This document shows positions 209-41,553 of a stretch of 49,004 nucleotides of DNA, one piece after another. Both the position numbers and the translations under genes were made by a program. Under the pieces are notes generated by a model that worked only from the letters and a program-made list of their open reading frames with translations, ran no database searches and was not told where the DNA came from. Source of the stretch: Planctomycetes bacterium GWA2_39_15 (GTDB taxonomy: Bacteria > Planctomycetota > Brocadiia > Brocadiales > Brocadiaceae); assembly GCA_001824485.1 (NCBI GenBank), contig MHXP01000208.1, positions 1 through 49,004 on the forward strand, read 5' to 3'. Positions within the stretch are counted from its first letter, which is position 1, and every line of letters starts with the position of its first letter.

Positions 209-1141
209 CTACAGACGTTTATAATATTCTATTGTTTTCTGTAAACATTTATCCGTATCCAGTACAGGCTCCCATTTCAGCAGGTTTTTGGCAAGACTAA
301 TGTCAGCATACAACTCCATATTTTCGCCCTTCCTGTATGGATGCGCACCCCACAGCGGTCTTCCGCCCCCTGTCAAAGCCATTATTTTACCTATCATTTC
401 TTTAATTGAAACAGGTAAACCCGATGCTATGTTTATTATATGCCCCTTAGACAGTGGAGATACAGCCGCTTTTATCATTGCATCGGTTACATCTTCCATA
501 TAGCAGAAATCTCTTAATTGTTTTCCTTCTGATGTTTTAAATTCACTCTTATTTAAACAGCCCTTTATAATCTGGGGCAGGAATCTCTGGTCATTCTGGC
601 CTGGTCCGTAAACAAGAAACAGCCTCAGAGTAACTCCAGGAAACCCTTCGGTATGATGAAGCATTTGTATGAAATGGGACGCAGCAACTTTTGCAAAAGA
701 ATAAGGAGAAATCGGGCGTTCCCGCATCGTTTCTCTTTGCGGAGCAGGGGCAGCGCCATATTCATCGCTGCTGCCGACCTGAACAAAACCTTTTAGCCTT
801 TCTCTGTCAAGACATTCAATCAAATTCATAAGACCGATAAAATGAGATTCTATCACCTTGCGTCCACCCGAGAAATAATAACTGTGGTCTATATACCCGC
901 CAAGATTAAAGACGTAATCAAATGACTTATGCAAGAGGACGGATTTTAAGACATCTTTATTGCAAATATCAGCTTGAAGATACTTAGTACCACTCAGACG
1001 ATGTCCTTTATCCAATCTATCGGTTAATCCAAGACAGGTAACATTAGATGTTTCATTCAAGCATCTTTCAGCAAGATGTTTCCCAATAAACCCTGTACCT
1101 CCAATAATCAATATCCTGTCAGAAGTTGATAAGATACCCAT
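209..1141 (-). CDS. NAD-dependent sugar epimerase/dehydratase (extended SDR)
   Basis: 310 aa ORF. N-terminal Rossmann motif ILIIGGTGFIGKHL. Catalytic YxxxK present as YSFAK. Length and layout are typical of nucleotide-sugar epimerases/reductases. Confidence 0.8.
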   Translation of the reverse strand: MGILSTSDRILIIGGTGFIGKHLAERCLNETSNVTCLGLTDRLDKGHRLSGTKYLQADICNKDVLKSVLLHKSFDYVFNLGGYIDHSYYFSGGRKVIESHFIGLMNLIECLDRERLKGFVQVGSSDEYGAAPAPQRETMRERPISPYSFAKVAASHFIQMLHHTEGFPGVTLRLFLVYGPGQNDQRFLPQIIKGCLNKSEFKTSEGKQLRDFCYMEDVTDAMIKAAVSPLSKGHIINIASGLPVSIKEMIGKIMALTGGGRPLWGAHPYRKGENMELYADISLAKNLLKWEPVLDTDKCLQKTIEYYKRL

Positions 1142-1291: not shown

Positions 1292-3154
1292 TCATGTGAG
1301 AAATGCCTTCAGGGTTTCCTCTGTTGCAGGATAAAAAAGTTCTTCTGTCTTTTTTTTCCCTCTGGCAATTAAACTTCTTATCTCTTCCTCTCCAAGGCTG
1401 ATGGCCCGTTGCACTGCTTTTGTAATCTCATCTGTACTGAAAACAGGTTTAAAATCGGGATAATTTTTAAACCATTCAAGTATATTTTGTTGTAAAGTAG
1501 TTTCCTTACCGACAATTACTGTAGGAACACCCCGACATACTGCCTCGACAGCAGGACTGCCATCCGATGTCACAACACATTTGCACCTGTGTAACCACTC
1601 GCCAAAATCACCGGTTATCCATTCCCATCCCTCAGGTAAAGATTCTCTTTTTAATGCTCTCATTATAAAGTTTATATTGTACATAGGATGTGGCTTTACT
1701 ACTATCGGCACAATAATCTGCGTCAAACTTTCAATACATTTCGACAACAGTTCTACAGAAGCGTCAGCATCCATCGTCAAAGCAATTAAAACGACACGTG
1801 GTCTCTCGTTATTTCTCTTAATAGAAAATTGTTGAAAAAGATGCATGTATTTAAGGACTGGCCCGGCTATCAACTTTTCCACGACCATGCCTTCCTGTTC
1901 TAGTTTTTTACACATCCATGGTCCGTTGGTTATGATCCGGTCTGGGTACGGTCCCATTTTTGATTCCTCAGGTGTTCCTGAGTACCGTAGGTTAAACGGC
2001 TGGCCCCCTGCATGCTGGTACCCTATGGTCATTACCTCTGGCATAAACTTTCTAAAAGCTAATATTTGTGGCTTCTCATTACTATAGTTTTCAAAAAAAT
2101 CAATAAAAGAATGTACTCGTACATTCTTCTCTTTCCAATTTTTGATCATTCTGTAGTAGAGTAAAAAATTGACTGAAAATACGTTTCCTGCCTGCCGCCA
2201 ACGGCACATTTTGACGAGCCTGGTTATATCCCATCCATTGACCACTTGCGTGCCTTTGATTTTGTTTAACCCTTTCAATACCTGATAAATAGCCCAAATA
2301 TAATCCCTAAACCCAACGTGGTCTTCCGGTATTATGAAGGGTTTGGAATTTTGCCTGAGCCACTTGTAGGCTGAGATAAGACCGCGATTCATATTATACA
2401 GTCTGGCCAATGTCCAGATATCAAATCCTTTTTCTTTCAGCCAATTCGGTAAGTTGGCGAAATAGCGATCGTTAAAAACGCCGTCTTTACCGAAGCATGC
2501 CTCATCAACACATGTGCGAATAATAATGCGCGGTAAATTACAGTTTTTATAGAAATTATGTTTATCAAACTTCAAAGTGTACTTCGCCGCCAACCAGGAT
2601 TTTGACAAATACCATATGCCTAAAACCCAGCGTCCCGCCAGGAGAAAAATTTCTTTTACTATTTCACTGACGACTTTAATCCACACGTTTCCTGTTGTTT
2701 CTATGTTCCTTCCCCTTTTTGTAAGTTCATCCCGCATTGTTTGGATAAGTGGTATAGATTCACAAATCACCATGATATTTTCTTTATGCTCATCAATTAT
2801 CTTACTGACCACATTAAGGTAGCAAAGATATAAAAACAAAGGGTTTATCTGGGTATTCCTTTCCCACATAAATGAAGCCCACCATGAAATGTCGTTCTGG
2901 TATATTCGTGAGAAAGATGCGCTCCATCCCACAAAAGGACGACGTAGTTCCCATGCAGATTCATGAATATCTTTACTGATAGATACATGATTGAATGATG
3001 TGAGGGCATCTTTCAAGCTGAGTAAAGTCTTATATGATCTCCCCAGATATATCCAATCGGCTGTATTATGTTTAATCGCGATCTTCTTTAAATTACAAAC
3101 ATCCATACTTTCATGTACTAATAATATTTTTGCTTTCTTGTAACAGTTTAGCAT
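1292..3154 (-). CDS. 620-aa orphan; putative GT-B-type (TagF/KpsS-like) glycosyl- or glycosylphosphotransferase, function unproven
   Basis: Long ORF with a 7-nt overlap to the upstream gene. C-terminal signature VVKPHPMY ..(about 45 aa).. VVTSDGSPAVEAVCRGVPTVIVG is shared in layout with 7168..9126 and 33668..35524. Hydrophobic segment IFLLAGRWVLGIWYL near residue 170. I recognise no N-terminal domain. Confidence 0.5.
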   Translation of the reverse strand: MLNCYKKAKILLVHESMDVCNLKKIAIKHNTADWIYLGRSYKTLLSLKDALTSFNHVSISKDIHESAWELRRPFVGWSASFSRIYQNDISWWASFMWERNTQINPLFLYLCYLNVVSKIIDEHKENIMVICESIPLIQTMRDELTKRGRNIETTGNVWIKVVSEIVKEIFLLAGRWVLGIWYLSKSWLAAKYTLKFDKHNFYKNCNLPRIIIRTCVDEACFGKDGVFNDRYFANLPNWLKEKGFDIWTLARLYNMNRGLISAYKWLRQNSKPFIIPEDHVGFRDYIWAIYQVLKGLNKIKGTQVVNGWDITRLVKMCRWRQAGNVFSVNFLLYYRMIKNWKEKNVRVHSFIDFFENYSNEKPQILAFRKFMPEVMTIGYQHAGGQPFNLRYSGTPEESKMGPYPDRIITNGPWMCKKLEQEGMVVEKLIAGPVLKYMHLFQQFSIKRNNERPRVVLIALTMDADASVELLSKCIESLTQIIVPIVVKPHPMYNINFIMRALKRESLPEGWEWITGDFGEWLHRCKCVVTSDGSPAVEAVCRGVPTVIVGKETTLQQNILEWFKNYPDFKPVFSTDEITKAVQRAISLGEEEIRSLIARGKKKTEELFYPATEETLKAFLT

Positions 3155-3807
3155 TTTGTCACGAGTTTATTTATGTAGTTTTTTATCTCTTTTATATCCC
3201 TAAATGAGAGTACATCCGGACTAAATGTAACAAAATTGTTATTTAGTCCAATAAAATTTATTCTCGCCTCTTGTGCAGCTTTATAATCAAATAGCGAGTC
3301 ACCGATGTAATAAACATTGTTCCTTATAAAATTTTCATTGATAACTATAGCTTCAATTTCTCTCGATTTTACTTGTGCACTTCCAATAATTTTTTTAAAA
3401 AAACTGCATAAGTTGCGCATTTGGGTAATTTCTTCAAGCTCTTTTTGCGGGGTAGTCGACAATAAAAAAATGGGTATCTTTTTTGTGAAATATTCCAGGA
3501 ATTCAACGGCTCCTGCTATAAAAGAACATTCACATATTTTTTTTAGACACATCTCCGAGAACTTATCTGAAAGATTTTTGATCATGTGTGCTGGATCACT
3601 AATCTTTAGTAAGTCTTTAAACAGGTATTCAAATTTTGCATACCGTGACAATCCAATATTTCCCCTGTGATAAGCCATTGCTTTTTCATATACATCGGGA
3701 TAGCGTATAAAAACTTCATGAAATACCTCAGTCTTTACACTTACAGAATCAAGTATCACTCCATCAAAATCAAGTATCAGACAGTCAAGCTTTTTATATG
3801 AAGCCAT
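3148..3807 (-). CDS. HAD-superfamily phosphatase
   Basis: Motif I LILDFDGVILDS (DxDG), motif II LLSTTP, motif IV YIGDSLFDY. 219 aa. Confidence 0.8.
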   Translation of the reverse strand: MASYKKLDCLILDFDGVILDSVSVKTEVFHEVFIRYPDVYEKAMAYHRGNIGLSRYAKFEYLFKDLLKISDPAHMIKNLSDKFSEMCLKKICECSFIAGAVEFLEYFTKKIPIFLLSTTPQKELEEITQMRNLCSFFKKIIGSAQVKSREIEAIVINENFIRNNVYYIGDSLFDYKAAQEARINFIGLNNNFVTFSPDVLSFRDIKEIKNYINKLVTKC

Positions 3808-4696
3808 GCTCTTTTAAATTGTTGTACAAACGCGTGTACTCATCGCTATTCAATCGGCTCCATGGCTCTCTGCAGGTTCCCACATCCAGTCCCTTCATTT
3901 TTAAAATATCATAGCAAACAACGGCTCGTAGCGGTTTGATGCCCTGAAAGGCCCTTGCCTGAATAACTTTCAACTGAAGCTCCGTTGCAGCCTCAAAATC
4001 TCCATTCATAATACTGTTGTAAAGGGCAACAACAATTTCAGGAAATGCCGTAGAAGTGCCGGCAACACACCCTTTTGCGCCAAGCATGAAACCCGGCAAT
4101 AAAATACTTGCAGAACCCGGCAGTAAATTAAAATCAGGCATTTTTTTGTTTATGATATTCATCATCTCACCGAAAGTTGCCATATTTGCACCACTATCCT
4201 TCACGCCGGTAACTCCGACGTCAATCAATTTTGAAAAAAAAGAAGGGGTAAGCGTATAGCCGGTTGTCCGAGGATTATTGTAATAGTGTACGGGTATACG
4301 AACTGAATTTACTATTTTTTCATAATGTTTCAGAATCGAAGCTTCATCGTATCCAAATGAAGAATAGTAAAACGGAACAACACCCGCTACAATATCAGCA
4401 CCAGCAGATTCAGCATGCTGTGCTAAATAAATGGATGTTTTGGTCGAAGGTGATCCTACATGGATAATTATTTGCAAACATCTTTTTTTAGCATGTGAAA
4501 TTATTATCTTAGCGGCATTCATTCTTTCCTGAGTGCTCATTAAGGGAAAACTTCCGTATGAACCAATAGCGAATAAACCGTGCACCCCCTTTTCTGATAA
4601 AAAATCAATGAGATTTCGTATCCCTTTTTCGTATATTTCTCCCCCTTCAGTAAACGCAGTAATTATTGGTGAGATGACGCCTTTAACATTTATCAT
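3794..4696 (-). CDS. DapA/NanA-family class I (Schiff-base) pyruvate aldolase
   Basis: GLFAIGSYGSFPLMSTQER occupies the position of the GTTGE region. VHYYNNPRTTG matches the Y-N-x-P motif. GVTGVKDSGAN contains the candidate Schiff-base Lys. 300 aa. Confidence 0.8.
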   Translation of the reverse strand: MINVKGVISPIITAFTEGGEIYEKGIRNLIDFLSEKGVHGLFAIGSYGSFPLMSTQERMNAAKIIISHAKKRCLQIIIHVGSPSTKTSIYLAQHAESAGADIVAGVVPFYYSSFGYDEASILKHYEKIVNSVRIPVHYYNNPRTTGYTLTPSFFSKLIDVGVTGVKDSGANMATFGEMMNIINKKMPDFNLLPGSASILLPGFMLGAKGCVAGTSTAFPEIVVALYNSIMNGDFEAATELQLKVIQARAFQGIKPLRAVVCYDILKMKGLDVGTCREPWSRLNSDEYTRLYNNLKEHGFI

Positions 4697-5418
4697 ATGT
4701 TCTCCTTTTTATTATCTTTATTTAGCAAGAATTTAACGTACTCAAATTGGAATTCGTGGTCTATATCTATAGACCTTTCAAAAGGCATAATATAAGGGAT
4801 AGGTTCAGTCCCTATTAGATTTTCCTGTTTTTTTAACCGCATTACTGTATTGAAAATAATAGCTCCATTATACCAAAACGTCATTGTATGCTCTTGACTG
4901 CGCGTTGTTCTTAAATACTCCCTTGGGAAAACCGGGACTAAGCGGTTATCTTCTGAGATTGCGAGTGCCAAATGAATGGGTCTCTCGTACCGCGTTACGC
5001 TCACCACAGGAGTTTTGATGTCGTTATTCAAAAAAATTTCCCAAGTGTCTTTGATATCGGTAACATTTCGCAGGGGAGAGGTCGCAAGCATTATTCCAAC
5101 CGCAACATCGTCTTTTAGATTTAAAGCTGACAGCATTTCTTTAATCACGTCTATAAGGAGGATGTTATCTCCGGACAATTCTGCCGGTCGTCTATATCCC
5201 TCTGCGCCGTAATACCTGCCAATATTAAGAATCTCATCGTTTTCAGAGTTTACTATTATTCTTGAAAAAATTCCACTTTCTCTGGCTTTAACAATAGTGT
5301 GATATAGTAACGGTTTTCCGTTACATTCTTTTATGTTTTTATTTTTAACTCTTTTTGACCCTCCCCGCGCAGGAATGATGCATATACACTTGCTTTTGTG
5401 AGATTCCTTTGATTCCAT
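4693..5418 (-). CDS. CMP-sugar synthetase (acylneuraminate cytidylyltransferase family, CTP_transf_3)
   Basis: N-terminal CIIPARGGSKRVKNKN followed by NGKPLLYHTI. 241 aa. 4-nt overlap with the aldolase gene downstream. Confidence 0.85.
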   Translation of the reverse strand: MESKESHKSKCICIIPARGGSKRVKNKNIKECNGKPLLYHTIVKARESGIFSRIIVNSENDEILNIGRYYGAEGYRRPAELSGDNILLIDVIKEMLSALNLKDDVAVGIMLATSPLRNVTDIKDTWEIFLNNDIKTPVVSVTRYERPIHLALAISEDNRLVPVFPREYLRTTRSQEHTMTFWYNGAIIFNTVMRLKKQENLIGTEPIPYIMPFERSIDIDHEFQFEYVKFLLNKDNKKENI

Positions 5419-5424: not shown

Positions 5425-7167
5425 CTAGAGGTAATTTCCTATCCCCTTATAAAAATTGTAATAACTTGTCGGTGTGATAATGTGAATATCCTCTTTTTCT
5501 TTCGAAAGCAGATAATTATTGATTTGTCCGAGATGCCATGCGCACCAATGGTGTCGTTCTATTATTAATTCTCTCCTTTCATATTCATCTTCATCATGAT
5601 AAAACAAAAATTGTCCTTCTTTATCGGTTGAAAGATAACCATCCATCCCGGCAACATAAATTTTTTCAGCCCCCATAACGATTGACACCGCTATTAACAG
5701 AACGGAAACCGTACGACAATTACTTGAGATTCTTCCCGTAGTGTCAATATCAAATCCTTTATTGACAATGTCATCATAATAAATTCTCTCGTATGGACGA
5801 TCTAAATAAGTTCTTACCAAGGGGTCTGGGATATATTCTCCTAAAAGTATTTTGGAGTCGGGGGCTACCGTATCATAAAAGCGAAGGAATCTTTTTGACA
5901 GGGTGAAAGCATGATAATGCGGTTTAATTAAATTTCCAAGATAGTTCGCACCGATTACGATAGGGCTATATTTTTCAATAAACGCCTGTATTCTTGTTTG
6001 ATATTCCTTAAGAGTCGGACCATTTGCAAGAATAAGAAAAGATTTTCCCCTATGCCTCCCAATGTAAGGAACACAGACCTTCTGTTTATTAAAATCAACT
6101 GACTCTTTTCCCACCACCTTAATATCCCGAAGTACGCCATCTCCAATAAAACCGTTGATAATGACGTCGTCTATTATTTGTTTCGAATACCCTATGGGAT
6201 TCTTTTTTTTAATCAATTCCATAACTCTCCATATATCTTCCATGGAGTATCGCTTTCTATCGAGTAAATCTTTAACATAATTAGGATGCGTTGAAAATAC
6301 TCCCGAAAGCATAAATGGAAGACTGTACCCCCATGGATTATCCTCAAAAATTTTCATTAAAAAGGTATCTATACAATTAAGCACTGGCAGAGCATTGTAT
6401 CTATGGGGCTTAATTTTTTGAAAGTAAGCCAGGATGATTTCCGTGGGGAGATTTCCAGCCCCACGTCCCATGCCATACATCGAACTGTCAATTATATGCG
6501 CACCGCATCTTATAGCTTCAAGGGTGTTTGCAAAAGCCATTTGCAGGTTATTGTGAGGATGAAAACCAATCATGGCATTCGGGATTTCAAGGAAGGTTTC
6601 AATTATTGATTGAATCTGATTAGGGAATATCGAACCGTAGCTATCAGCAATGTAAACATAATCAACGTCCGAAGCCTTAAGTAAACTTATAAGATTTTTG
6701 ATATCAGAGTGGGTATAGCTACTGATGCCCATTACATTTAAAGAAACTTCATAGCCTTTGTTCTTAATTTTCTCTAATAAGTTTATAGCGTCTTTAACGC
6801 TATCCTTATGCACAGCAAGTCTTATCAGAGTTATCGCAGTGTTGTTGGCACAATCAAAATCGCCTTCTTCTATCTTTCCGTAGTCGGCCATTATAGCGAT
6901 TTTAGCACCATTAATACCTTTAGAAACTTCTCTAATAAGCTCATCCTCGGAAAACCTCCATATACCGTATTCTTTTCTATTAAAGTATTTTTCTGTCCCT
7001 CTGAATCCCAACTCAACATAATCTATTCCAGCCTTCGATAAAGAACGGTATGCTTCACGTACAAATTTCATATCAAAATGCCAGTCATTCACATAACCAC
7101 CATCTCTGATTGTACAATCTAATATTTTAAAATTATTGATGCTCTGTTTGTCTGACAGGTATTTCAT
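5425..7167 (-). CDS. fusion: HMGL-like (DRE-TIM, 4-hydroxy-2-oxovalerate aldolase-type) domain + C-terminal DUF115/Maf- or GT42 sialyltransferase-like domain
   Basis: N-terminal half: ILDCTIRDGGY and GFHPHNNLQMAFANTLEAIRCGAHIIDSSMYGMGRGAGNLPTE. C-terminal half: FLILANGPTLKEY (compare the GNGPSL motif) and SVLLIAVSIVMGAEKIYVAGMDGY (compare the Cst-II-type ..GYKEIYLSGIDFY as I recall it). Confidence 0.7.
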   Translation of the reverse strand: MKYLSDKQSINNFKILDCTIRDGGYVNDWHFDMKFVREAYRSLSKAGIDYVELGFRGTEKYFNRKEYGIWRFSEDELIREVSKGINGAKIAIMADYGKIEEGDFDCANNTAITLIRLAVHKDSVKDAINLLEKIKNKGYEVSLNVMGISSYTHSDIKNLISLLKASDVDYVYIADSYGSIFPNQIQSIIETFLEIPNAMIGFHPHNNLQMAFANTLEAIRCGAHIIDSSMYGMGRGAGNLPTEIILAYFQKIKPHRYNALPVLNCIDTFLMKIFEDNPWGYSLPFMLSGVFSTHPNYVKDLLDRKRYSMEDIWRVMELIKKKNPIGYSKQIIDDVIINGFIGDGVLRDIKVVGKESVDFNKQKVCVPYIGRHRGKSFLILANGPTLKEYQTRIQAFIEKYSPIVIGANYLGNLIKPHYHAFTLSKRFLRFYDTVAPDSKILLGEYIPDPLVRTYLDRPYERIYYDDIVNKGFDIDTTGRISSNCRTVSVLLIAVSIVMGAEKIYVAGMDGYLSTDKEGQFLFYHDEDEYERRELIIERHHWCAWHLGQINNYLLSKEKEDIHIITPTSYYNFYKGIGNYL

Positions 7168-9126
7168 TTAGGATATATTTAAAAGTAAAGGTTGCAGATT
7201 ACTTTCGGCAGAAAATAACTTTTCAAAGTAAGACACCAATTTTATTACTTCAGTGCCTTGTAAGGCATGCCTCTCCCAAATAGACTTTGGAACATCAGTC
7301 TTTTCAAGATGATTTTCAATAATCCAACGAAGTCCCCAGTATATATGTTCCTCAGTACTAACATAGTAACATGAATCTATCCTAGGTTCTAAAAAAGGAT
7401 TAAGTGGCTGCGCATCCTTGACATGACAATATTTTCCATGTGGATCATAAAGCAAGACAGGAACTTTATTCAGTATTGCTTCTTCAATAGTAGTTGATGA
7501 ATAACTGATTAACAGATCGGCGATTGCAAGATAATCCGAAAAAGGACCTTCCGTATGGATACCATAGCAATCAGACGGCAATAAAAGTTCTTTAAAATTA
7601 TTTATACTCATTTCAGGATTTGGCCTGAAACGAACTATTAGATACGCATTTTGAATTTTCTTTACATTCTGTATAAGGGAATTAATATTATTTATATACT
7701 CATCTGTGGTTTCATAAACATAAAACCTTCTGGCAAATCTGGTCTTTGGAGTACCTGCGTGTATTAGTATTTTCTTATCTAAATATTTTGGTATAATTTT
7801 TTGCTTCAATATCAATTTTTTCTCTCTGTCAGTTTGCGCAAACAATAAAGGGCCTGTAACTATCTCTTTACTCTCAGTGGGTATTTGTTGGAGATATCTT
7901 TTTGCCCAGGGTGACTGAATAGCGACGTATTTATAATGAGTATTCATTAAGCCCAAACCATGTTCTCCCCACTCAATTTTTTCATATTCATTTGCCATCG
8001 GTACATGCGATCCGTGGGATATTAACAGAGAAGGAATATTATATAATCGAGTTAATTCTCCCAAATTGTAATTAATATCTCTGCTCATTTGAGAAATGAC
8101 TATGGAAGGTTGAAATGTTTTTAGAAATTTTTCAAGGTATACACTCTGCCCATAAATATTACAGATTGTTGGAATAATATCTTTTTTTATTTTTTTTATA
8201 ACAAGAGTTTTAAACTTCACACCCTTATATTCAAAAACAATGTCAGCGTCAGGGGAATTTTCTAACTTACATACTTTTTCGGTAAGAGCTTTAAAAAAAC
8301 GGATACGTCTTTTTCTGCTGGAATAAGGCGGCAGGGATACATACCCATCTTCGTCATGTGTAACAAATAATCGTTTTAACGAAAGGGTATTTTTCTCGCT
8401 TAAATAAACTGCATGAATATGGGGAAATTGTTCTTTAAATTGTTTTACTACTTTGTCGAGATTGTAATTTTTTGAGGTCGCCACGAGGATTTTGTCTTTT
8501 CCCCACCGTCGCCTCATAGCATAGATATTGAAAGTAAAAGCCGTTAACTTGGCTAGCGTGATAAAAAATTTAGTTATTTTTTTAATAGCAAATTTATGTT
8601 TCTGTATTTTACCTCTAAACAACTCATACCTGATTCCATATTTGCTAGCGATTATTTTCCCGACGTCTGTAACATATCCCTCGTTATCGGCTAAACGAGG
8701 GATTGTCATGTGGCTATAGTCTCTTTGACAAAAAAGTATTTTATTAATATTCCACCGACTACATGCGTTATCGATAATTTCAATTAACCAGAGGATATAG
8801 TGAACATAACACCTCATATAGAAAAGTAAAGATATTTTATATCCTTCCGTTATTCCCAGGTCATCTTTTATTGTTAAAAAAGACTGACAGAATCTGTATA
8901 TTCGGTCTGATTGCAACAGTGCCTGTTCGTGTCCCCTCCTGTTAAAAAAACTATAAGTATTAAAAAAACGAATATCCATGCATTTTAAATGTGCCTGAGC
9001 CTCAGGCAGAAGGGCAAGGATGTACGTATTCGTATCCCTTAGTTCCCCAATTGATCTCTGTAAAAGAAAAGAATCAATTTCATCTTTGAATTCAAACAAT
9101 ACAAGCGTCTTATCGATACTTTTCAT
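7168..9126 (-). CDS. 652-aa orphan; putative GT-B-type transferase, paralog-like to 1292..3154 and 33668..35524
   Basis: C-terminal IVRFRPNPEM ..(about 40 aa).. LLISYSSTTIEEAILNKVPVLLYD. Hydrophobic segment FFITLAKLTAFTFNIYAM near residue 185. It abuts the downstream gene (7167/7168) and overlaps the upstream gene by 4 nt. Confidence 0.5.
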   Translation of the reverse strand: MKSIDKTLVLFEFKDEIDSFLLQRSIGELRDTNTYILALLPEAQAHLKCMDIRFFNTYSFFNRRGHEQALLQSDRIYRFCQSFLTIKDDLGITEGYKISLLFYMRCYVHYILWLIEIIDNACSRWNINKILFCQRDYSHMTIPRLADNEGYVTDVGKIIASKYGIRYELFRGKIQKHKFAIKKITKFFITLAKLTAFTFNIYAMRRRWGKDKILVATSKNYNLDKVVKQFKEQFPHIHAVYLSEKNTLSLKRLFVTHDEDGYVSLPPYSSRKRRIRFFKALTEKVCKLENSPDADIVFEYKGVKFKTLVIKKIKKDIIPTICNIYGQSVYLEKFLKTFQPSIVISQMSRDINYNLGELTRLYNIPSLLISHGSHVPMANEYEKIEWGEHGLGLMNTHYKYVAIQSPWAKRYLQQIPTESKEIVTGPLLFAQTDREKKLILKQKIIPKYLDKKILIHAGTPKTRFARRFYVYETTDEYINNINSLIQNVKKIQNAYLIVRFRPNPEMSINNFKELLLPSDCYGIHTEGPFSDYLAIADLLISYSSTTIEEAILNKVPVLLYDPHGKYCHVKDAQPLNPFLEPRIDSCYYVSTEEHIYWGLRWIIENHLEKTDVPKSIWERHALQGTEVIKLVSYFEKLFSAESNLQPLLLNIS

Positions 9127-10478
9127 TTATTGTCATTTTTTATCCAATATCCAATGAGTTTTTCTGCCATTCGGAAATCTTCTTCTCCCCTTACCTCTAT
9201 GGAAGAGTACGGATTGTTAACTTCATAAATACCTATCCTCTCACCTAATAGTGACCCCGCCCTCAGAAACTCCGGGTGAGTAACACAACAAAGACCTTTC
9301 ATTCCGATGAAGCATGGCTCCTTGTATTTTCTTGGAATATCCCCCTTATCAATTCTCTCTATTACGCCATTTTCTTCTCTCCAAATTGATCTAAATTCCT
9401 TCTTTATAGCAAGCACACTGTCAAATCCATTTTTTACCGCTTGTTCTATCATATTATCAACAAGATACTTTGGTCTGAAAGGAAAAGTCTCTTCAAGATA
9501 AACCACAATGTCAGGAAAGATTTTCAGTTCTTCGATTTTATCCAGGGAATATTGAAGAACCTTCTCAGTATCAACAAAATCCTTTGAATGGGACTCATCT
9601 CTCAGAAAAGGGACCTCGGCACCCAATGAATCAGCCAGCCTTGCCAGTTCGGGATTGTCAGTTGATACAATAACCTGTTTTACATGTCTCGACGTAAGCG
9701 CCCGTTCAATTGTATAACCGATAAGGGGTTCGCCATTAAGGTAATTAATCCTTCCCTTTACGGGGATTATTGCAATAACATGTAAATTTCTGATATCCAC
9801 ATGGTTGTTATATAAGGTCTCAGGATTAAGCGATTCAAGAATTCTTACGATATTTGCACATCTCCTTTTATCTTCTGCATGGTGAATACCATGATAATGA
9901 TACACACTCGCTTCCGGTTCGTAGACAATCCTGTATCCCCTCTGGAGCATTTTCTCGGCCCATATCCTATCTTCTATGTTAGTGACTGTTTCATCAAATG
10001 GTACTTCCTCCCACAGAGACTTTCTTATCATGCTATTGGCATTATGGAAAAAGCTATCCTTTCTTTGAACCCTCCTATCCAGCCCGAATATTATCGAAAG
10101 GTCCCTCTTGTCTGCATCCTGGGTAAATGCAAGTGGTTCTTGTCTCCCATACACGGCTGCTAATTCTGTATCATCAAAGTTTCTCAGCAAGTTTGTAAGC
10201 CACCTTTCGTTAACCGGGATACAATGCCCGGAAAGGCAGACAATATATTCGCCTTTTGCTTCGCGTATTCCCATATTTAGAGCCAGTCCCGGTTTGTAAT
10301 CTGTGCATGTCACAATTTTTGCAATATCAAATTGCAATGCTTTTTCTATGGTTTTGTCAGTACTTTCGTTATCAACTATAATGACCTCAAAATCCTTGTT
10401 ATGCTGTTTGAAAACTGCCGTTAAACACGAAGTTATCCATCTCTCTTCGTTTTTAGTTCTGACAATAATCGAAACCAT
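9123..10478 (-). CDS. fusion: GT2 (GT-A) glycosyltransferase domain + cytidylyltransferase (CTP_transf_3)-like domain with divergent motifs
   Basis: N-terminal half: VSIIVRTKNEERW and FEVIIVDNESTDKT, with the usual DxD position reading IVCLSGHCIP. C-terminal half: IAIIPVKGRINYLNGEPLIGYTIERAL and VIVSTDNPELARLADSLGAEVPFLR follow the CMP-sugar synthetase layout, but the ARGGSK loop is replaced by VKGRIN. Confidence 0.7.
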   Translation of the reverse strand: MVSIIVRTKNEERWITSCLTAVFKQHNKDFEVIIVDNESTDKTIEKALQFDIAKIVTCTDYKPGLALNMGIREAKGEYIVCLSGHCIPVNERWLTNLLRNFDDTELAAVYGRQEPLAFTQDADKRDLSIIFGLDRRVQRKDSFFHNANSMIRKSLWEEVPFDETVTNIEDRIWAEKMLQRGYRIVYEPEASVYHYHGIHHAEDKRRCANIVRILESLNPETLYNNHVDIRNLHVIAIIPVKGRINYLNGEPLIGYTIERALTSRHVKQVIVSTDNPELARLADSLGAEVPFLRDESHSKDFVDTEKVLQYSLDKIEELKIFPDIVVYLEETFPFRPKYLVDNMIEQAVKNGFDSVLAIKKEFRSIWREENGVIERIDKGDIPRKYKEPCFIGMKGLCCVTHPEFLRAGSLLGERIGIYEVNNPYSSIEVRGEEDFRMAEKLIGYWIKNDNK

Positions 10479-10483
10479 ATAGT

Positions 10484-10596
10484 ATTACCGTGTAAAAACT
10501 TTCTTTTTTAGTAAGTTCTTTACCTCCCCTTCATCCCATCCTTGCGAAGGAGGGGAAAGAGGGATGGTCAATTGGTTGCGGCTATGCTGCGCTATG
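10484..10596. repeat. copy B of the ~115-bp composite intergenic repeat
   Basis: Same arms as 1155..1270. The central palindrome has diverged (tacctccccttcatcccatccttgcgaaggaggggaaagagggatggt). It lies 5 nt upstream of the start codon of 9123..10478 and 37 nt past the stop of 10634..11371. Confidence 0.85.
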
Positions 10597-10633
10597 CATT
10601 GGATGCCTATTTCAAAATACTAAAATGTTGCTT

Positions 10634-11371
10634 TTATTCTAAGTCCTCAACAGATTCATCGTATTTAACCCCGTATTTTTTTACCAACGATTTTGCTCTC
10701 AGTATGTAATCAGCAAGCATGAGGTCTTCTTTGGTCTTTATGATAATCGAGGTCTCTTTACTCACAGGATAGTATCTTACTTTACCGCAAAAAAAGGCAT
10801 AACCCTTTTCTTTATACGCATCCATAAATGTTCTGTTTTTCCACATCATTATTGAATACACAAAAGGTTGAACCGGTTTTAAGTTCTGTGTCTGGGCAAA
10901 AACTTCACCAGGATTAAAATTAACAGGTTTTCCATCATAAACACAGTGAACCTGTTCGTTTTTTACAGTAATAAGGGTATCAAGTTTCTCTCTGATAAAA
11001 TAGTTTATGACCGCTCTTATCTCTTCTCCTGTTTGTAATGGAGACGTAGGATTTACCCATGCCATGATATCGGATGGATACTTCGACATAAAATCATATA
11101 CGACACTATCGGACTTAGTCGTGGAAGAACCTAGTTCTTTTGGTCTTAAGTAAAATTCCACACCGTAGCGTTTCGCAATTTTGGCAAAAAATTCACTATC
11201 AGAATTCACGATAATACTGGTGAAGATACCTGAATCTTTTGCCGCCTCAATCGCATACGAAATAAGGGGCTTCTCGTTTATAAGTGCAAGGTTTTTCATC
11301 TTAAGACGGTTACTCCCAATCCTTGCAGGAATCATTGCAATTATGTATTTTTTTTTATTTCCAGACACCAC
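10634..11371 (-). CDS. cytidylyltransferase (CTP_transf_3 family)
   Basis: IAMIPARIGSNRLKMKNL followed by NEKPLISYAIEAA. 245 aa. An A9 run lies in codons 5-8. Confidence 0.85.
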   Translation of the reverse strand: MVSGNKKKYIIAMIPARIGSNRLKMKNLALINEKPLISYAIEAAKDSGIFTSIIVNSDSEFFAKIAKRYGVEFYLRPKELGSSTTKSDSVVYDFMSKYPSDIMAWVNPTSPLQTGEEIRAVINYFIREKLDTLITVKNEQVHCVYDGKPVNFNPGEVFAQTQNLKPVQPFVYSIMMWKNRTFMDAYKEKGYAFFCGKVRYYPVSKETSIIIKTKEDLMLADYILRAKSLVKKYGVKYDESVEDLE

Positions 11372-13915: not shown

Positions 13916-15589
13916 TTATGAACCAATCTTCAGAAGTAATTTCTCATTAATTTTTTTCAAAGACATCTCTATATTAATTTTTGAATAATCAAGGCCATCT
14001 AAAAGTTCCTCTATATTTATGTTCACAGGTTTCTTAAAACGTGGATATATACCTTGAATATCACCTTTTTTTACGTTTTTAAGCCTAGAATTAAAGAGAT
14101 TTTTAATTTTATTTTTTAAAATAACCCACAGGTGCTTCTTTTTATAATTTATATATATCTTTTGCAATGGAAGCATAATCTTAATAAGCAACTTTATTTT
14201 ATACTTTCTGTAAAGATAATATTCGTCCATCTCGTCCCTTATCGTAGTCACCCACTTCGCAACTACTTCATCTGATTCATCAGTAAGGTTTACATGGAAA
14301 TTTCCTGCACGTCCGGTATCTCCATCAAGAGAAGAAAGGTATTCATCTTCATCTTTTACAATTCCGGTTAGTCTTGAAAAATCATAGAGCGGTGACCCGG
14401 GGATAGGAAGGGCATATGTCATTTGGTACTGCTTAAAATTAAAGTTTAAAGATTTAAGAAAATCAATTGATTCTCTGATGGTCTTGTTAGTTTCACCAGG
14501 CATTCCCAAAACAAGTGCCGGAGAAGTATAAATGGCTGCTTCTTTAGTTAATATTGCAACTTGTCTGTTTTGTTCAACAGTTACTCTCTTATCTATTATA
14601 TTCAGCATTTTTTGGTTACCCGATTCAAAGCCGTATTCTATCATCCAGCAGCCAATTTCTTTATATGCCTTAAGTATATCTTTATCCACAGTATCTACTC
14701 TCATACCGAGTATTCGAAAAATTATATCAAGATTTCTTCTTTTATACTCTTCGATAAAATCCCAATTCCTTTTCTTATTTGGTGCAAAACACTCATCCCC
14801 AAAGGTAAAAAAACCCACATCGAACTTTTCGATGCAATATTCTATAAAATCAAAAACATATTTCATCGAGTGTACTCTTATTCCTCTATTTGCTCTAAAA
14901 CAAAAACTGCATATCCCAAAACATCCTCTGCTTGTGGGAATTGTTATCATTTTCCTTTTTCTTTTGGAATTATATATCCTTTTATCTATTTTAGTTGTGA
15001 ATTTACGGATGAATTCTATGCCATCGGGCAAATATTCACTAATGTCTATCAAATCAAATGCAGGATAAGGCAAACTATCTAAATCCTTTATCGTTTCTCT
15101 TTTATCTGTATGTACATTTGAAAACTCATTTTTAAAAGTAATCCCAGATATACTATTCAAATCTTTGTTACTTTTCAAACAGTCCATCAGTTCTACTATA
15201 GCGATTTCTCCCTCTCCATGAACTACAATATTAATTGCAGTATGTTGTAAAACAGGCTCTACCGCACTAGTTAATCCTCCGCCAAGAATTTGTATTTTAT
15301 TGGGAAAGGCTTGTTTAATTTCCCGACTCAAATCTTTTATATATTTGTACGAAGGTGCAACTATACCGCTAAATCCAATATATTTTGGATTAATTTGCCT
15401 GACTCTTTCAATTACTCCTTGATTATTTATTCTTTCGGTATCGACATTTAATATCATAGGGGTATATCCTTTTTGTCTCAATGCACTGGCAATATACATT
15501 GCACCATAGGGAGGATAAATAGTATGTTTTATACGTGATGGAGGAATAATTAATAAGAGATCAACATTTGTTTTATATAATGACGACAT
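13916..15589 (-). CDS. B12-binding-domain (class B) radical SAM enzyme
   Basis: N-terminal cobalamin-domain pattern with VVHGEGEIAIVEL. 4Fe-4S motif TSRGCFGICSFCF (CxxxCxxC). 557 aa with a Lys-rich C-terminal extension. Confidence 0.85.
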   Translation of the reverse strand: MSSLYKTNVDLLLIIPPSRIKHTIYPPYGAMYIASALRQKGYTPMILNVDTERINNQGVIERVRQINPKYIGFSGIVAPSYKYIKDLSREIKQAFPNKIQILGGGLTSAVEPVLQHTAINIVVHGEGEIAIVELMDCLKSNKDLNSISGITFKNEFSNVHTDKRETIKDLDSLPYPAFDLIDISEYLPDGIEFIRKFTTKIDKRIYNSKRKRKMITIPTSRGCFGICSFCFRANRGIRVHSMKYVFDFIEYCIEKFDVGFFTFGDECFAPNKKRNWDFIEEYKRRNLDIIFRILGMRVDTVDKDILKAYKEIGCWMIEYGFESGNQKMLNIIDKRVTVEQNRQVAILTKEAAIYTSPALVLGMPGETNKTIRESIDFLKSLNFNFKQYQMTYALPIPGSPLYDFSRLTGIVKDEDEYLSSLDGDTGRAGNFHVNLTDESDEVVAKWVTTIRDEMDEYYLYRKYKIKLLIKIMLPLQKIYINYKKKHLWVILKNKIKNLFNSRLKNVKKGDIQGIYPRFKKPVNINIEELLDGLDYSKINIEMSLKKINEKLLLKIGS

Positions 15590-16799: not shown

Positions 16800-16892
16800 A
16801 CCTTCCCCTCCTTATGAAGGAGGGGAAATAGGGGAGGTATAAAAATAATACCCTTCCGGCTTCTCCTTACTAAAGAGGAGATTGGGGGTGGT
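16800..16892. repeat. two adjacent GC-rich palindromes of the CCCCTCCTT..AAGGAGGGG family
   Basis: 16803..16827 is ttcccctcctt-atg-aaggaggggaa, a perfect 11-bp stem nested in accttcccc..ggggaggt. 16861..16892 is ttctccttactaaagaggagattgggggtggt. They overlap the 3' tail of the DUF559 ORF. Confidence 0.6.
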
Positions 16893-17240: not shown

Positions 17241-17248
17241 ATTTGACA

Positions 17249-40471: not shown

Positions 40472-40472
40472 T

Positions 40473-41456: not shown

Positions 41457-41553
41457 TACGCTGATAACTAATAATTTTATGCTGCTTTTCTCTCTGCAAT
41501 TTTTTATCTATATTTTTCCCTGTTTATTTTGTTTTTTAATAAAATCGAGATTT

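What the first reader, a model, noticed from the sequence alone, without database searches (positions are those of the whole stretch)
5425..7167. Aldolase fused to a sialyltransferase/Maf-like (DUF115, GT42-like) domain
Seen: one 580-aa ORF joins two domains.
- A complete HMGL-like DRE-TIM aldolase domain (DCTIRDGG; HPHNN..GMGRGAGN).
- A C-terminal domain with FLILANGPTL and ..MGAEKIYVAGMDGY.

Established: the C-terminal motifs match, in order and spacing, the GNGPSL and G-I-D-F-Y motifs of Cst-II-type (GT42) sialyltransferases and of DUF115/Maf flagellin nonulosonic-acid transferase candidates. I quote these from memory.

Inference: physically coupling a pyruvate-dependent C-C bond-forming or -cleaving domain to a keto-acid-sugar transferase-like domain is unusual. 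It could channel a newly built ulosonic acid. Alternatively the DUF115 part may be a kinase-like (MptE-type) module acting on the aldolase product.
Basis: partly seen in the sequence, partly recalled or inferred. Interest (0 to 1): 0.75.

Follow-up and report, generated by a model that had tools for sequence, protein, structure and literature searches.

The report
Aldolase fused to cytidine-nucleotide transferase-like domain
A real, widespread but uncharacterised two-domain enzyme (pyruvate aldolase plus a small nucleotide-binding domain related to sialyltransferases) sits in a surface-sugar gene cluster and probably builds and hands on an unusual CMP-activated keto-acid sugar by a route that does not use the classical synthases.

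Summary
The 580-aa ORF is real; it lies on the minus strand (5425-7167). It is not an assembly artefact. The identical protein occurs on 16 independently assembled contigs, and the same architecture occurs in more than 80 species.

- **N-terminal domain (residues 1-336).** A DmpG-like DRE-TIM aldolase. The metal ligands and Arg are kept; the DmpG catalytic His and Tyr are replaced.
- **C-terminal domain (residues 363-580).** The window copy scores below the Pfam threshold, but 21 of 30 relatives match PF01973. Its motifs are collinear with Cst-II. Its closest solved folds are archaeal MptE kinase and SteA, not Cst-II or Maf.
- **Operon.** The conserved operon adds a HAD phosphatase, a cytidylyltransferase (KdsB-type in the canonical operon, PseF-like in the window), a KpsC-like transferase and often a second pyruvate aldolase.
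- **Other arrangements.** The C-domain also exists as a stand-alone 205-270-aa protein, usually next to a cytidylyltransferase. One locus has the aldolase fused to the cytidylyltransferase instead.

Best reading (about 0.42): a pyruvate-aldolase synthase of a Kdo-like acid fused to a module that uses a cytidine-nucleotide-linked substrate, probably as a transferase. A kinase role is the main rival. No paper was found on this family. It is a new variant of a known kind, of moderate to high interest.

The parts
5425..7167 (-). Whole 580-aa fusion ORF ('FUS'). Its start abuts the stop of the upstream gene (7168), and the next gene starts 6 nt downstream.
   Evidence: Exact protein on 16 contigs. 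120 full-length homologues.
6160..7167 (-). Residues 1-336: DmpG-like DRE-TIM metallo-aldolase barrel plus a helical 'communication' subdomain. R21, D22, H203 and H205 are conserved. Y25 and F291 replace DmpG H21 and Y291. Family-specific invariant residues are W29, F31, W279-G-Y281, S288 and H294-P295.
   Evidence: PF00682 at E=3e-29. PDB 3DXI at 4e-47 and DmpG 1NVM at 3e-24 with a residue map. Foldseek. Conservation over 77 sequences.
6082..6159 (-). Residues 337-362: variable interdomain linker, predicted disordered.
   Evidence: Gappy, unconserved alignment columns. pLDDT below 50.
5428..6081 (-). Residues 363-580: compact Rossmann-like phosphonucleotide-binding domain of the MptE/DUF115/GT42 superfamily. 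Motifs: ANGPTL 381-386, N408, R426-F427, C484-R485-T486, GMDGY 507-511, Y523 and TPT 565-567.
   Evidence: PF01973 in 21 of 30 relatives. Model pLDDT 87. Foldseek hits to SteA, MptE and ST8SiaIII-CTP. hhalign against Cst-II. Stand-alone homologues exist.
4693..5418 (-). Cytidylyltransferase (CTP_transf_3, PseF/NeuA-like) immediately downstream.
   Evidence: A cytidylyltransferase (CMPt_a cluster) is in 39 of 62 orthologous loci with enough downstream sequence.
3794..4696 (-). DHDPS/NanA-like class I pyruvate aldolase. In most other loci an HpcH/HpaI class II aldolase takes its place.
3148..3807 (-). HAD-IA phosphatase.
   Evidence: A HAD gene is in 40 of 62 loci.
1292..3154 (-). 620-aa TIGR04326-like protein with a KpsC-like C-terminal region and an invariant K-x-H-P motif. 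Candidate CMP-ulosonate transferase.
   Evidence: Alignment A3 and a KpsC hit at E=1.7e-4. Present in 40 of 62 loci.
209..1141 (-). NAD-dependent epimerase/dehydratase at the end of the operon.
   Evidence: Recurrent downstream partner.
7168..9126 (-). 652-aa unknown protein with weak similarity to the BFO_1060 family (the Tannerella forsythia Pse/Leg transferase). Second candidate transferase.
   Evidence: E=1.6e-4. PMC5420450. Present in 23 loci.
9123..11371 (-). GT2-cytidylyltransferase fusion (9123-10478) and a further cytidylyltransferase (10634-11371).
   Evidence: The same block is seen in Brocadiaceae and other loci.

Best explanation
FUS is a two-domain enzyme of a PEP-independent pathway to a CMP-activated 3-deoxy-2-ulosonic (Kdo/KDG-like) sugar acid used in a surface glycan.

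**Proposed steps, all inferred**
1. The N-terminal DmpG-type domain binds pyruvate (or another 2-oxo acid) on a divalent metal held by D22, H203 and H205. R21 stabilises the enolate. The enolate adds to an aldose or aldose-phosphate carbonyl and creates the keto-deoxy acid skeleton.
2. The neighbouring HAD phosphatase removes a phosphate.
3. The adjacent cytidylyltransferase makes the CMP-acid.
4. The fused C-terminal MptE/Maf/GT42-superfamily domain binds that cytidine-nucleotide-linked product. It most likely transfers the acid to an acceptor, alongside the KpsC-/TagB-like transferases of the operon.

**Shown:** the folds, the conserved residues, the obligate fusion and the gene linkage.
**Inferred:** the substrates, the direction of the aldolase reaction and transferase activity of the C-domain.
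For: **Aldolase domain**
- PF00682 at 3e-29. The closest solved relatives are 3DXI and DmpG.
- The metal ligands and Arg are conserved in 77 sequences.

**C-domain**
- PF01973 is matched by 21 of 30 relatives.
- Motifs are collinear with Cst-II: NGP(S/T)LKE, N31, R129-T, GxDxY and xPxS.
- Foldseek hits are phosphonucleotide-binding folds, including ST8SiaIII bound to CTP. The SteA paper links this pocket to the CMP site of Cst-II.

**Operon context**
- Of 62 loci with at least 6.5 kb downstream, T4326 is in 40, a cytidylyltransferase in 39 and HAD in 34 plus 6.
- The canonical cytidylyltransferase passes the KdsB models.
- T4326 resembles the KpsC beta-Kdo transferase.
- The PfkB partner is KDG-kinase-like and the HpcH partner is a 2-keto-3-deoxy-acid aldolase.
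- In about 9 loci FUS is the only candidate enzyme for C-C bond formation next to a cytidylyltransferase.

**Alternative arrangements of the same parts**
- Stand-alone C-domains have a cytidylyltransferase within about 4 genes in 7 of 9 contexts.
- L090 has C-domain | HMGL-cytidylyltransferase fusion | HAD.
- L089 has HpcH and a cytidylyltransferase five genes upstream of its C-domain. L094 has the compact run HpcH | KdsB-type cytidylyltransferase | methyltransferase | C-domain.

**Other**
- Maf (DUF115) enzymes can transfer Kdo as well as nonulosonic acids (bioRxiv 10.1101/2020.06.03.131540, its title and abstract as listed).
- The full-length model has pTM 0.81, which suggests a fixed domain arrangement.
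Against: - There are no biochemical data for any member.
- The window copy fails the Pfam thresholds for PF01973 and PF06002. A profile search finds no PDB sequence.
- The best structural matches are the MptE pyrophosphokinase and SteA, at TM about 0.5. Cst-II and Maf are absent from the top 50.
- The Cst-II catalytic His188 equivalent could not be established. R485 is not conserved in the distant Bacillota subfamily.
- The operon already encodes KpsC-/TagB-like transferases, so a further transferase is not required.
- DmpG catalytic H21 and Y291 are replaced by Y25 and F291, so the aldolase chemistry may differ.
- Fusing the first and last steps of a pathway is unusual.
- Distant subfamilies lie in NDP-sugar loci with no cytidylyltransferase within 10 kb.
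Confidence: 0.42

Rival explanations
1. Kinase-synthase fusion. The C-domain is an ATP-dependent kinase or pyrophosphokinase like MptE. It phosphorylates the aldose or the aldol product. The aldolase domain condenses it with pyruvate, HAD then dephosphorylates, the cytidylyltransferase activates, and T4326 or unk650 transfers. This matches the mammalian order of ManNAc kinase, Neu5Ac-9-P synthase, phosphatase and CMP-synthetase.
For: - The best Foldseek hits are MptE HPPK (8SD5, E=2.7e-5, TM 0.54, and the same 215-aa size) and the TPK-like SteA.
- A HAD phosphatase is a very frequent partner, in 40 of 62 loci.
- Each conserved gene would get exactly one role, and the fused domains would catalyse consecutive steps.
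- PF01973 is named after MptE.
Against: - Only one acidic residue (D509) is conserved across all subfamilies. Mg-ATP pyrophosphokinases normally need several (this is inference).
- The stand-alone C-domain tracks cytidylyltransferases (7 of 9 contexts) better than phosphatases (3 of 9).
- Loci with a KDG-kinase-like PfkB lack a phosphatase.
- The Cst-II-like NGPSLKE, R-T and GxDxY motifs are present.
Confidence: 0.22
2. Nucleotide-anchored aldolase, acting as a branching or chain-extending enzyme. The C-domain holds the nucleotide handle of an NDP- or CMP-linked keto or aldehydo sugar. The aldolase domain adds a pyruvate C3 unit to it. The product would be a C-branched or higher-carbon sugar such as the 4-C-(pyruvamide) sugar shewanellose.
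For: - In Bacillota the fusion directly follows NTP-transferase, 4,6-dehydratase, DegT and a YerE-like ThDP enzyme in a Wzx/Wzy locus with no cytidylyltransferase.
- Loci L076 and L077 add a split transketolase and an NDP-sugar C-methyltransferase.
- Asn-synthase-like amidotransferases recur in these loci.
- The structure of shewanellose, which co-occurs with a legionaminic acid derivative, is given in PMC4052302.
- SteA, the top fold match, binds GDP or UDP.
- The two domains are always fused in the FUS family, and the model has pTM 0.81.
Against: - It does not explain the tight linkage to HAD, a KdsB-type cytidylyltransferase and a KpsC-like transferase in the main family.
- The C-domain also works as a stand-alone protein with no aldolase nearby.
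- No Shewanella homologue was seen. The scan patterns were strict, so this is weak evidence.
Confidence: 0.14
3. Regulatory domain. The C-domain is a non-catalytic sensor that binds the CMP-activated end product and feedback-inhibits the aldolase. C-terminal regulatory domains do this in other DRE-TIM enzymes (LeuA, CimA, HCS), and CMP-Neu5Ac does it for GNE.
For: The architecture of barrel, helical subdomain, flexible linker and C-terminal domain mirrors LeuA-type enzymes (established knowledge). The domain has a nucleotide-binding fold.
Against: - The C-domain is at least as conserved as the catalytic domain: 69% mean column identity against 63% overall.
- It exists as an independent protein family in operons without this aldolase.
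Confidence: 0.07
4. The database reading: an ordinary catabolic 4-hydroxy-2-oxovalerate aldolase (K01666, DmpG).
For: JGI and KEGG label relatives '4-hydroxy 2-oxovalerate aldolase'. The best NCBIfam hits are PRK08195 and TIGR03217.
Against: - Scores are far below the cut-offs: 137 against 229 and 123 against 286.
- The catalytic His and Tyr are replaced.
- None of the 40 window ORFs scanned matched a DmpF-type dehydrogenase family.
- The context is always glycan biosynthesis.
Confidence: 0.02

Closest known systems
DmpG/BphI/HsaF 4-hydroxy-2-oxovalerate aldolases (DRE-TIM, PF00682; PDB 1NVM, 4LRS, 4JN6, 8IH7)
   Same: TIM barrel plus C-terminal helical communication domain. The metal ligands Asp/His/His and the enolate-stabilising Arg are kept (D22, H203, H205, R21).
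   Different: Identity is about 21%. Catalytic H21 becomes Y25 and Y291 becomes F291. No DmpF-type dehydrogenase partner is present. A C-terminal nucleotide-binding domain is fused instead. The context is glycan biosynthesis, not aromatic catabolism.
BVU_2661 'putative aldolase' of Bacteroides vulgatus (PDB 3DXI, N-terminal domain only)
   Same: The closest solved structure (E=4e-47, 32% identity). It shares the DCTLRDGGY..NW.F and WG.NLPYMLSG signatures. The entry title says only the N-terminal domain was crystallised, so the protein has more than this domain.
   Different: Function unknown. Its C-terminal part was not seen here. It lacks the H294-P295 motif.
Cst-II / GT42 sialyltransferases (PDB 1RO7)
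   Same: Collinear motifs: GNGPSLKE, beta2-Asn, N-x-R-x-T, GxDxY and xPxS. Local hhalign E=1e-3. Both use or sit beside CMP-activated keto-acid sugars.
   Different: PF06002 gives only E=0.038. There is no Foldseek hit in the top 50. The domain is smaller (218 against 259 aa or more). The lid and the His188 equivalent were not established.
Maf flagellin nonulosonic-acid/Kdo transferases (DUF115, PF01973; PDB 5MU5)
   Same: Same Pfam superfamily. CMP-Pse, CMP-Leg, CMP-Neu5Ac and CMP-Kdo are their donors (with the paper's title and abstract listed).
   Different: Maf proteins carry additional domains around the central DUF115 domain. Here there is only the 218-aa core, no flagellar genes lie nearby, and the fusion partner is an aldolase.
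MptE archaeal 6-hydroxymethyl-dihydropterin pyrophosphokinase (PDB 8SD5) and SteA (9HMY)
   Same: The best structural matches (E about 2e-5, TM about 0.5). MptE is the same size.
   Different: No detectable sequence similarity by profile search. No pterin-pathway context. Only one acidic residue is universally conserved.
Kdo pathway: KdsA, KdsC, KdsB, then KpsC/KpsS or WaaA
   Same: The operon has a HAD phosphatase, a KdsB-type cytidylyltransferase and a KpsC-like transferase in the same logical order.
   Different: The PEP-dependent synthase KdsA (or NeuB) is replaced by pyruvate aldolases (HMGL-type, with or without an HpcH- or NanA-type enzyme). An extra DUF115-like domain, an LdpA-like Fe-S protein and B12-radical SAM enzymes are added.

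Membership tests
DRE-TIM metallolyase / HMGL-like (PF00682) | Profile match above the gathering score. | tested here: met
   102.7 bits against a cut-off of 29, residues 13-248.
DRE-TIM metallolyase / HMGL-like (PF00682) | Conserved Asp/His/His metal site and Arg after strand 1. | tested here: met
   D22, H203, H205 and R21 align to DmpG D18, H200, H202 and R17. They are at least 97% conserved in 77 sequences.
4-hydroxy-2-oxovalerate aldolase (DmpG/BphI; TIGR03217, PRK08195) | Score above the curated equivalog cut-off. | tested here: not met
   123 bits against 286, and 137 against 229.
4-hydroxy-2-oxovalerate aldolase (DmpG/BphI; TIGR03217, PRK08195) | Catalytic His21 and Tyr291. | tested here: not met
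   They align to Y25 and F291.
4-hydroxy-2-oxovalerate aldolase (DmpG/BphI; TIGR03217, PRK08195) | Adjacent acylating acetaldehyde dehydrogenase (DmpF). | tested here: not met
   None of the 40 window ORFs scanned matched such a family. No DmpF-type gene is among the conserved neighbour clusters that were annotated.
MptE-like / DUF115 (PF01973) | Profile match above the gathering score. | tested here: inconclusive
   Window copy: 15.4 bits against 34.6, E=0.016. Of 30 orthologues, 21 match at E<=0.01, the best at 3.8e-8. Several stand-alone homologues carry a precomputed PF01973 hit.
MptE-like / DUF115 (PF01973) | Structural similarity to a solved member. | tested here: met
   8SD5 MptE at E=2.7e-5, TM 0.54/0.55.
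MptE pyrophosphokinase (function) | ATP/Mg-dependent pyrophosphoryl transfer, and a pterin-pathway context. | not testable with these tools
   There is no pterin context. Only D509 is universally conserved among acidic residues. Activity cannot be tested here.
GT42 sialyltransferase (Cst-I/Cst-II, PF06002) | Profile match above the gathering score. | tested here: not met
   13.9 bits against 25, E=0.038, covering 32 residues only.
GT42 sialyltransferase (Cst-I/Cst-II, PF06002) | Donor-site residues: GNGPS loop, Asn31, Asn51, Arg129, Tyr156, Tyr162. | tested here: inconclusive
   The GNGPS, N31, R129 and Y156 equivalents are present (N382-P384, N408, R485, Y511). The N51 position is T/L in the window copy. 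The R129 equivalent is lost in the distant subfamily. The Y162 alignment is uncertain.
GT42 sialyltransferase (Cst-I/Cst-II, PF06002) | Catalytic base His188 in a lid. | tested here: inconclusive
   H539 is nearly invariant, but the global hhalign does not pair it with His188.
GT42 sialyltransferase (Cst-I/Cst-II, PF06002) | Fold match to 1RO7 or 2P2V. | tested here: not met
   Neither is among the top 50 Foldseek hits (E up to 0.1).
Maf flagellin glycosyltransferase | Additional domains around the central DUF115 domain, and a flagellar or flagellin-glycosylation context. | tested here: not met
   The domain is 218 aa with nothing C-terminal to it. No flagellar genes were found in the 49-kb window.
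CMP-ulosonic acid pathway (synthase, phosphatase, cytidylyltransferase, transferase) | Co-located cytidylyltransferase, phosphatase and CMP-sugar transferase-like genes. | tested here: met
   Window genes 4693-5418, 3148-3807 and 1292-3154. Frequencies over 62 loci. KdsB-type and KpsC-like assignments.
CMP-ulosonic acid pathway (synthase, phosphatase, cytidylyltransferase, transferase) | The product is a CMP-linked alpha-keto acid sugar. | not testable with these tools
   Needs metabolite analysis.

The most novel reading that the evidence does not exclude
FUS and its recurrent partners define a previously undescribed route to one or more new CMP-activated keto-deoxy sugar acids. The partners are a KdsB-type cytidylyltransferase, a HAD, an HpcH- or NanA-type aldolase, an LdpA-like Fe-S protein, B12-radical SAM enzymes and a KpsC-like transferase. 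The route would be PEP-independent and based on pyruvate aldolases. It is widespread in uncultivated phyla (Omnitrophota, anammox Planctomycetota, Desulfobacterota, Nitrospirota, Margulisiibacteriota and Saganbacteria, and some archaea). Its C-terminal domain would found a new family of compact (about 220 aa) transferases that depend on cytidine nucleotides, lying between MptE kinases and GT42/Maf sialyltransferases. In some lineages the same enzyme may instead graft a pyruvate unit onto a nucleotide-linked keto-sugar, as in shewanellose-type branched sugars.
Probability: 0.35. Interest if true: 0.75.

Novelty: new variant of a known kind. Interest (0 to 1): 0.6.

Why it matters
All characterised routes to Kdo, sialic, pseudaminic and legionaminic acids use PEP-dependent synthases (KdsA or the NeuB family).

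- A conserved operon in which pyruvate aldolases take that place would add a new biosynthetic logic for acidic surface sugars. Here the aldolase is fused to, or sits next to, a small domain likely to bind cytidine nucleotides.
- It would probably also add new sugars.
- It offers candidate genes for the unassigned CMP-linked alpha-keto acids recently detected by mass spectrometry in environmental bacteria, including anammox bacteria (bioRxiv 10.64898/2026.04.20.719630).
- It would correct a systematic mis-annotation as '4-hydroxy-2-oxovalerate aldolase'.
- It would give function to several hundred PF01973-like sequence clusters of unknown role.
- The enzymes could be useful biocatalysts for making ulosonic acids from pyruvate.

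Tried and rejected
- **Assembly or frameshift artefact.** Rejected: 16 independent contigs and more than 80 species share the architecture.
- **Radical SAM.** The sub-threshold PF04055 hit at residues 89-163 (24.9 bits against 29.5) reflects TIM-barrel similarity only, so this reading was dropped.
- **Profile of the C-domain against PDB sequences.** No hit even at E=10.
- **GT42 mini-profile.** An attempt to obtain Cst-I sequences returned only Cst-II variants.
- **Search with the distant Bacillota C-domain.** It returned only fragments of the same subfamily.
- **Viral contigs.** No relatives.
- **Literature searches.** Queries on DUF115 with aldolase, HMGL with nonulosonic, BVU_2661/3DXI, cytidylyltransferase with aldolase and radical SAM, 4-hydroxy-2-oxovalerate aldolase with NulO terms, MptE structure, and shewanellose found no paper on this fusion or on stand-alone C-domain proteins.
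- **unk652 and T4326 as paralogues.** Only a weak alignment of the C-terminal GT-B-like region (E=0.097). The unk650 profile found no meaningful PDB hit.
- **Phosphonate pathway** (HMGL plus cytidylyltransferase plus B12-radical SAM, as for fosfomycin or FR-900098). Considered, but no PEP mutase was found among the 40 window ORFs scanned.
- **Model coordinates.** They could not be read, so the distance between the two active sites was not measured.
Full report
**1. The observation**

The window holds an ATG-to-stop ORF of 580 aa at 5425-7167 on the minus strand.

- Pfam places HMGL-like (PF00682) on residues 13-248 at E=3e-29.
- The C-terminal 250 residues, scanned alone, give only sub-threshold hits: PF01973 MptE-like/DUF115 at E=0.016 and PF06002 CST-I at E=0.038.

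The DUF115/GT42 label for this particular copy rests on family-level evidence, not on the sequence alone.

**2. Real gene or artefact**

- The identical protein is recorded on 16 independently assembled contigs of 10-50 kb.
- A search of 5.8 billion proteins lists 120 homologues, all full length (567-611 aa). All but one near-identical copy are 50-58% identical, with both halves aligned end to end. They come from Brocadiaceae, Scalindua, Chloroflexota, Omnitrophota, Parcubacteria, Syntrophorhabdaceae and others.
- A scan of one genome per species returned 80 loci. Most are metagenome-assembled genomes, including two archaea. Two cultured carriers are Desulfocarbo indianensis (main-family type) and Ruminococcaceae KHP2 (distant subfamily).
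- The only poorly conserved stretch is a linker (residues about 342-362). It is disordered in the AlphaFold model.

The fusion is therefore ancient and under selection.

**3. The N-terminal domain**

- The closest solved structure is 3DXI, titled 'N-terminal domain of a putative aldolase BVU_2661' from Bacteroides vulgatus. Next come the DmpG, HsaF and AmnG 4-hydroxy-2-oxovalerate aldolases.
- In the residue-level alignment to DmpG, the Arg (R21) and the metal ligands (D22, H203, H205) are kept. DmpG's catalytic His21 and Tyr291 are replaced by Y25 and F291.
- The family has its own invariant residues: W29, F31, W279-G-Y281, S288 and H294-P295.
- NCBIfam scores for the DmpG models are far below their cut-offs.
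- None of the 40 window ORFs scanned matched a DmpF-type dehydrogenase family.

It is a distinct clade of 2-oxo-acid-binding metallo-aldolases, not the catabolic enzyme that JGI and KEGG labels suggest.

**4. The C-terminal domain**

*Sequence.*
- Twenty-one of 30 orthologues match PF01973, the best at 3.8e-8.
- I verified my recollection of the Cst-II sequence against 1RO7; 258 of 258 residues matched.
- hhalign of the domain profile against Cst-II gives a local match at E=1e-3 over N-x-R...GxDxY.
- A global alignment is collinear. GNGPSLKE pairs with ANGPTLKE, N31 with N408, R129-T with R485-T486, GIDFY with GMDGY and CPNS with TPTS.

*Structure.*
- A model of the domain alone has pLDDT 87.
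- Its best PDB matches are SteA (1.8e-5), the archaeal pyrophosphokinase MptE (2.7e-5, TM 0.54, the same size) and human ST8SiaIII bound to CTP (1.2e-3).
- Cst-II and Maf are not among the top 50.
- The SteA paper describes this pocket as a phosphonucleotide site resembling both the ATP site of thiamine pyrophosphokinase and the CMP site of Cst-II (PMC12977500).

*Conservation.* Across all subfamilies the universally conserved residues are G383, N408, R426-F427, G507-D509-G510-Y511 and T565-P566-T567. Only one of them is acidic.

The domain is best described as a compact phosphonucleotide-binding module of the MptE/Maf/GT42 superfamily. Fold alone does not say whether it is a kinase or a transferase.

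**5. The neighbourhood in the window**

All genes in the 49-kb window are on the minus strand and form one glycan locus. The genes around FUS are tightly packed, with overlaps or gaps of a few bases. In order they are:
- GFO oxidoreductase
- Ldh_2
- cytidylyltransferase
- GT2-cytidylyltransferase fusion
- 652-aa unknown
- FUS
- PseF-like cytidylyltransferase
- NanA/DHDPS-like aldolase
- HAD phosphatase
- 620-aa TIGR04326-like protein
- epimerase

. Further along lie five B12-binding radical SAM genes, a split transketolase, a sugar kinase with a nucleotidyltransferase, a carbamoyltransferase, and a canonical legionaminic/pseudaminic-type block with NeuB, a dehydratase, DegT, two PglD-like acetyltransferases and a fourth cytidylyltransferase.

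**6. Conserved context**

I called ORFs in 85 loci and clustered them. The canonical operon is [HpcH] FUS, LdpA-like Fe-S protein, HAD, [HpcH], cytidylyltransferase, TIGR04326-like protein. It is often followed by B12-radical SAM, epimerase and GT2 genes.

Among 62 loci with at least 6.5 kb downstream, the partner counts are:

| Partner | Loci |
|---|---|
| TIGR04326-like protein | 40 |
| Cytidylyltransferase | 39 |
| HAD | 34 (plus 6 of a second HAD type) |
| LdpA-like Fe-S protein | 30 |
| HpcH | 19 (more lie upstream of FUS) |

Variants replace HpcH by a NanA-like aldolase, as in the window. Others have unk650, cytidylyltransferase, FUS and a PfkB kinase.

The partner proteins were assigned as follows:
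- The canonical cytidylyltransferase passes curated KdsB models (NF003952 at 232.8 against 193; TIGR00466 at 162.5 against 155.2).
- The PfkB partner is KDG/KDGal-kinase-like.
- The HpcH partner resembles 2-keto-3-deoxy-acid aldolases.
- A profile of the TIGR04326-like protein hits the beta-Kdo transferase KpsC (E=1.7e-4) over a region with an invariant K-x-H-P motif.
- The window's 652-aa protein weakly matches the BFO_1060 family. These are the genetically validated Pse/Leg transferases of Tannerella forsythia (PMC5420450).

The operon therefore has the logic of the Kdo pathway: synthase, phosphatase, CMP-synthetase, transferase. Pyruvate aldolases stand in place of KdsA or NeuB. In about nine loci FUS is the only candidate for C-C bond formation beside the cytidylyltransferase.

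**7. Stand-alone C-domains and an alternative fusion**

An exhaustive HMMER search with the C-domain profile against 1.84 billion representatives found 561 proteins at E<=1e-3, 218 at E<=1e-10 and 67 at E<=1e-30. Many are complete 205-270-aa proteins on long contigs.

Nine of their contexts were read.
- A cytidylyltransferase lies within about four genes in seven of them. In L086 it overlaps the C-domain gene by 4 nt.
- A pyruvate aldolase or NeuB is present in five, and a phosphatase in three.
- L094 reads HpcH | cytidylyltransferase | methyltransferase | C-domain. L089 has the same HpcH | cytidylyltransferase | methyltransferase start, with three more genes before its C-domain. The L094 cytidylyltransferase is 42% identical to the canonical FUS-operon enzyme.
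- L090 reads C-domain | HMGL-cytidylyltransferase fusion | HAD. Its aldolase part is of the FUS type (32% identity, E=2e-53). Its C-domain is 27% identical to the window's (E=4e-28).

Aldolase, cytidylyltransferase and C-domain thus recur in three different fusion or adjacency arrangements, with two unrelated aldolase folds. This is strong evidence that they work in one pathway. It also suggests that the C-domain acts on something linked to a cytidine nucleotide.

**8. Interpretation**

*Most likely (about 0.42).* The aldolase domain makes a 3-deoxy-2-ulosonic-type acid from pyruvate and an aldose or aldose phosphate. HAD and the cytidylyltransferase process it. The C-domain then uses the CMP-activated product, probably as a small metal-independent transferase related to GT42 and Maf. 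Maf enzymes are reported to transfer Kdo as well as nonulosonic acids (title and abstract listed).

*Main rival (about 0.22).* The C-domain is an MptE-like kinase that precedes the aldolase. This fits the fold ranking and the ubiquitous phosphatase. It fits less well with the cytidylyltransferase linkage of stand-alone copies and with the single universally conserved acidic residue.

*Third reading (about 0.14).* The C-domain anchors a nucleotide-linked keto-sugar for pyruvate addition.
- Distant subfamilies prompt this reading. They sit behind NDP-sugar dehydratase, DegT and YerE-like ThDP genes in loci without a cytidylyltransferase.
- Natural sugars such as shewanellose also prompt it. Its C4 branch is a pyruvamide unit (PMC4052302).

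*Less likely.* A purely regulatory role is disfavoured, because the domain is as conserved as the catalytic one and has an independent life as a separate protein.

**9. Novelty**

- No paper on this fusion or on the stand-alone domain was found.
- Databases call it an 'aldolase catalytic domain-containing protein' or, wrongly, a 4-hydroxy-2-oxovalerate aldolase.
- Untargeted mass spectrometry has reported unassigned CMP-linked alpha-keto acids in environmental bacteria, including anammox bacteria. That makes the prediction testable.

I rate it a new variant of a known kind (CMP-ulosonic acid systems), with interest 0.6. The fusion itself is common rather than unique to this window, and its chemistry remains inferred.

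Noticed in passing
window 13916-15589, 20387-22036, 23372-24841, 32059-33459, 35556-36944 (all minus strand): Five paralogous B12-binding radical SAM genes lie in one glycan locus. The same family is the most frequent extra neighbour of FUS (47 of 85 loci) and of stand-alone C-domains. This suggests C-methylation or another radical modification of cytidylylated sugars, as Fom3 does on CMP-HEP.
   Followed up: partly
window 9123-10478 (minus strand): One ORF fuses a GT2 glycosyltransferase to a CTP_transf_3 cytidylyltransferase, joining activation and transfer. It is conserved in Brocadiaceae, Latescibacterota and other loci, together with Ldh_2 and GFO oxidoreductases.
   Followed up: partly
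window 39773-48456 (minus strand): A canonical legionaminic/pseudaminic-type block: NeuB (45959-47059), a 4,6-dehydratase (47458-48456), DegT (41554-42669), two PglD-like acetyltransferases (43737-45046), a GFO oxidoreductase, an SDR and a fourth cytidylyltransferase (39773-40471). No NeuC/LegG-type hydrolysing epimerase was seen inside the window.
   Followed up: partly
window 24834-26641 (minus strand): A split transketolase/E1-like pair (N and C halves as separate overlapping ORFs) next to two epimerase/dehydratase genes. This pattern is typical of two-carbon branching of NDP-keto-sugars.
   Followed up: no
window 16812-17249 (minus strand): A small DUF559 / REase_MTES_1575 endonuclease-like ORF is embedded in the glycan operon. 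It has no counterpart in any of the 84 related loci.
   Followed up: no
window 37168-39003 (minus strand): A NodU/CmcH-type carbamoyltransferase, implying an O-carbamoylated sugar. Three proteins of 618-652 aa had no Pfam match above threshold (33668-35524, 7168-9126, 1292-3154).
   Followed up: no
L090 6665-8431 (ENA ERZ27251120 k141_184317): An alternative fusion: a FUS-type HMGL aldolase joined to a CTP_transf_3 cytidylyltransferase (588 aa). It is flanked by a stand-alone C-domain gene and a HAD phosphatase.
   Followed up: yes
L001 11748-12761 and 43 other loci, immediately downstream of FUS: A 337-aa homologue of the cyanobacterial clock-associated Fe-S protein LdpA (DUF561-like N-terminus, two 4Fe-4S motifs, LdpA_C) is the gene most often adjacent to FUS. 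It is absent from the window. Its role in a sugar pathway is unexplained.
   Followed up: partly
L080 and L082 (Bacillota MAGs), L083 (Ruminococcaceae KHP2): A distant 521-542-aa FUS subfamily always follows an acetolactate-synthase-like ThDP enzyme. In L080 and L082 this pair lies inside a Wzx/Wzy polysaccharide locus with an NTP-transferase, a dehydratase, DegT and a pyruvyl transferase, but no cytidylyltransferase.
   Followed up: partly
whole window 1-49004: Every ORF of at least 100 aa judged coding is on the minus strand. GC is 33-39% and GC skew is uniformly negative, so this is one long co-directional glycan island.
   Followed up: no
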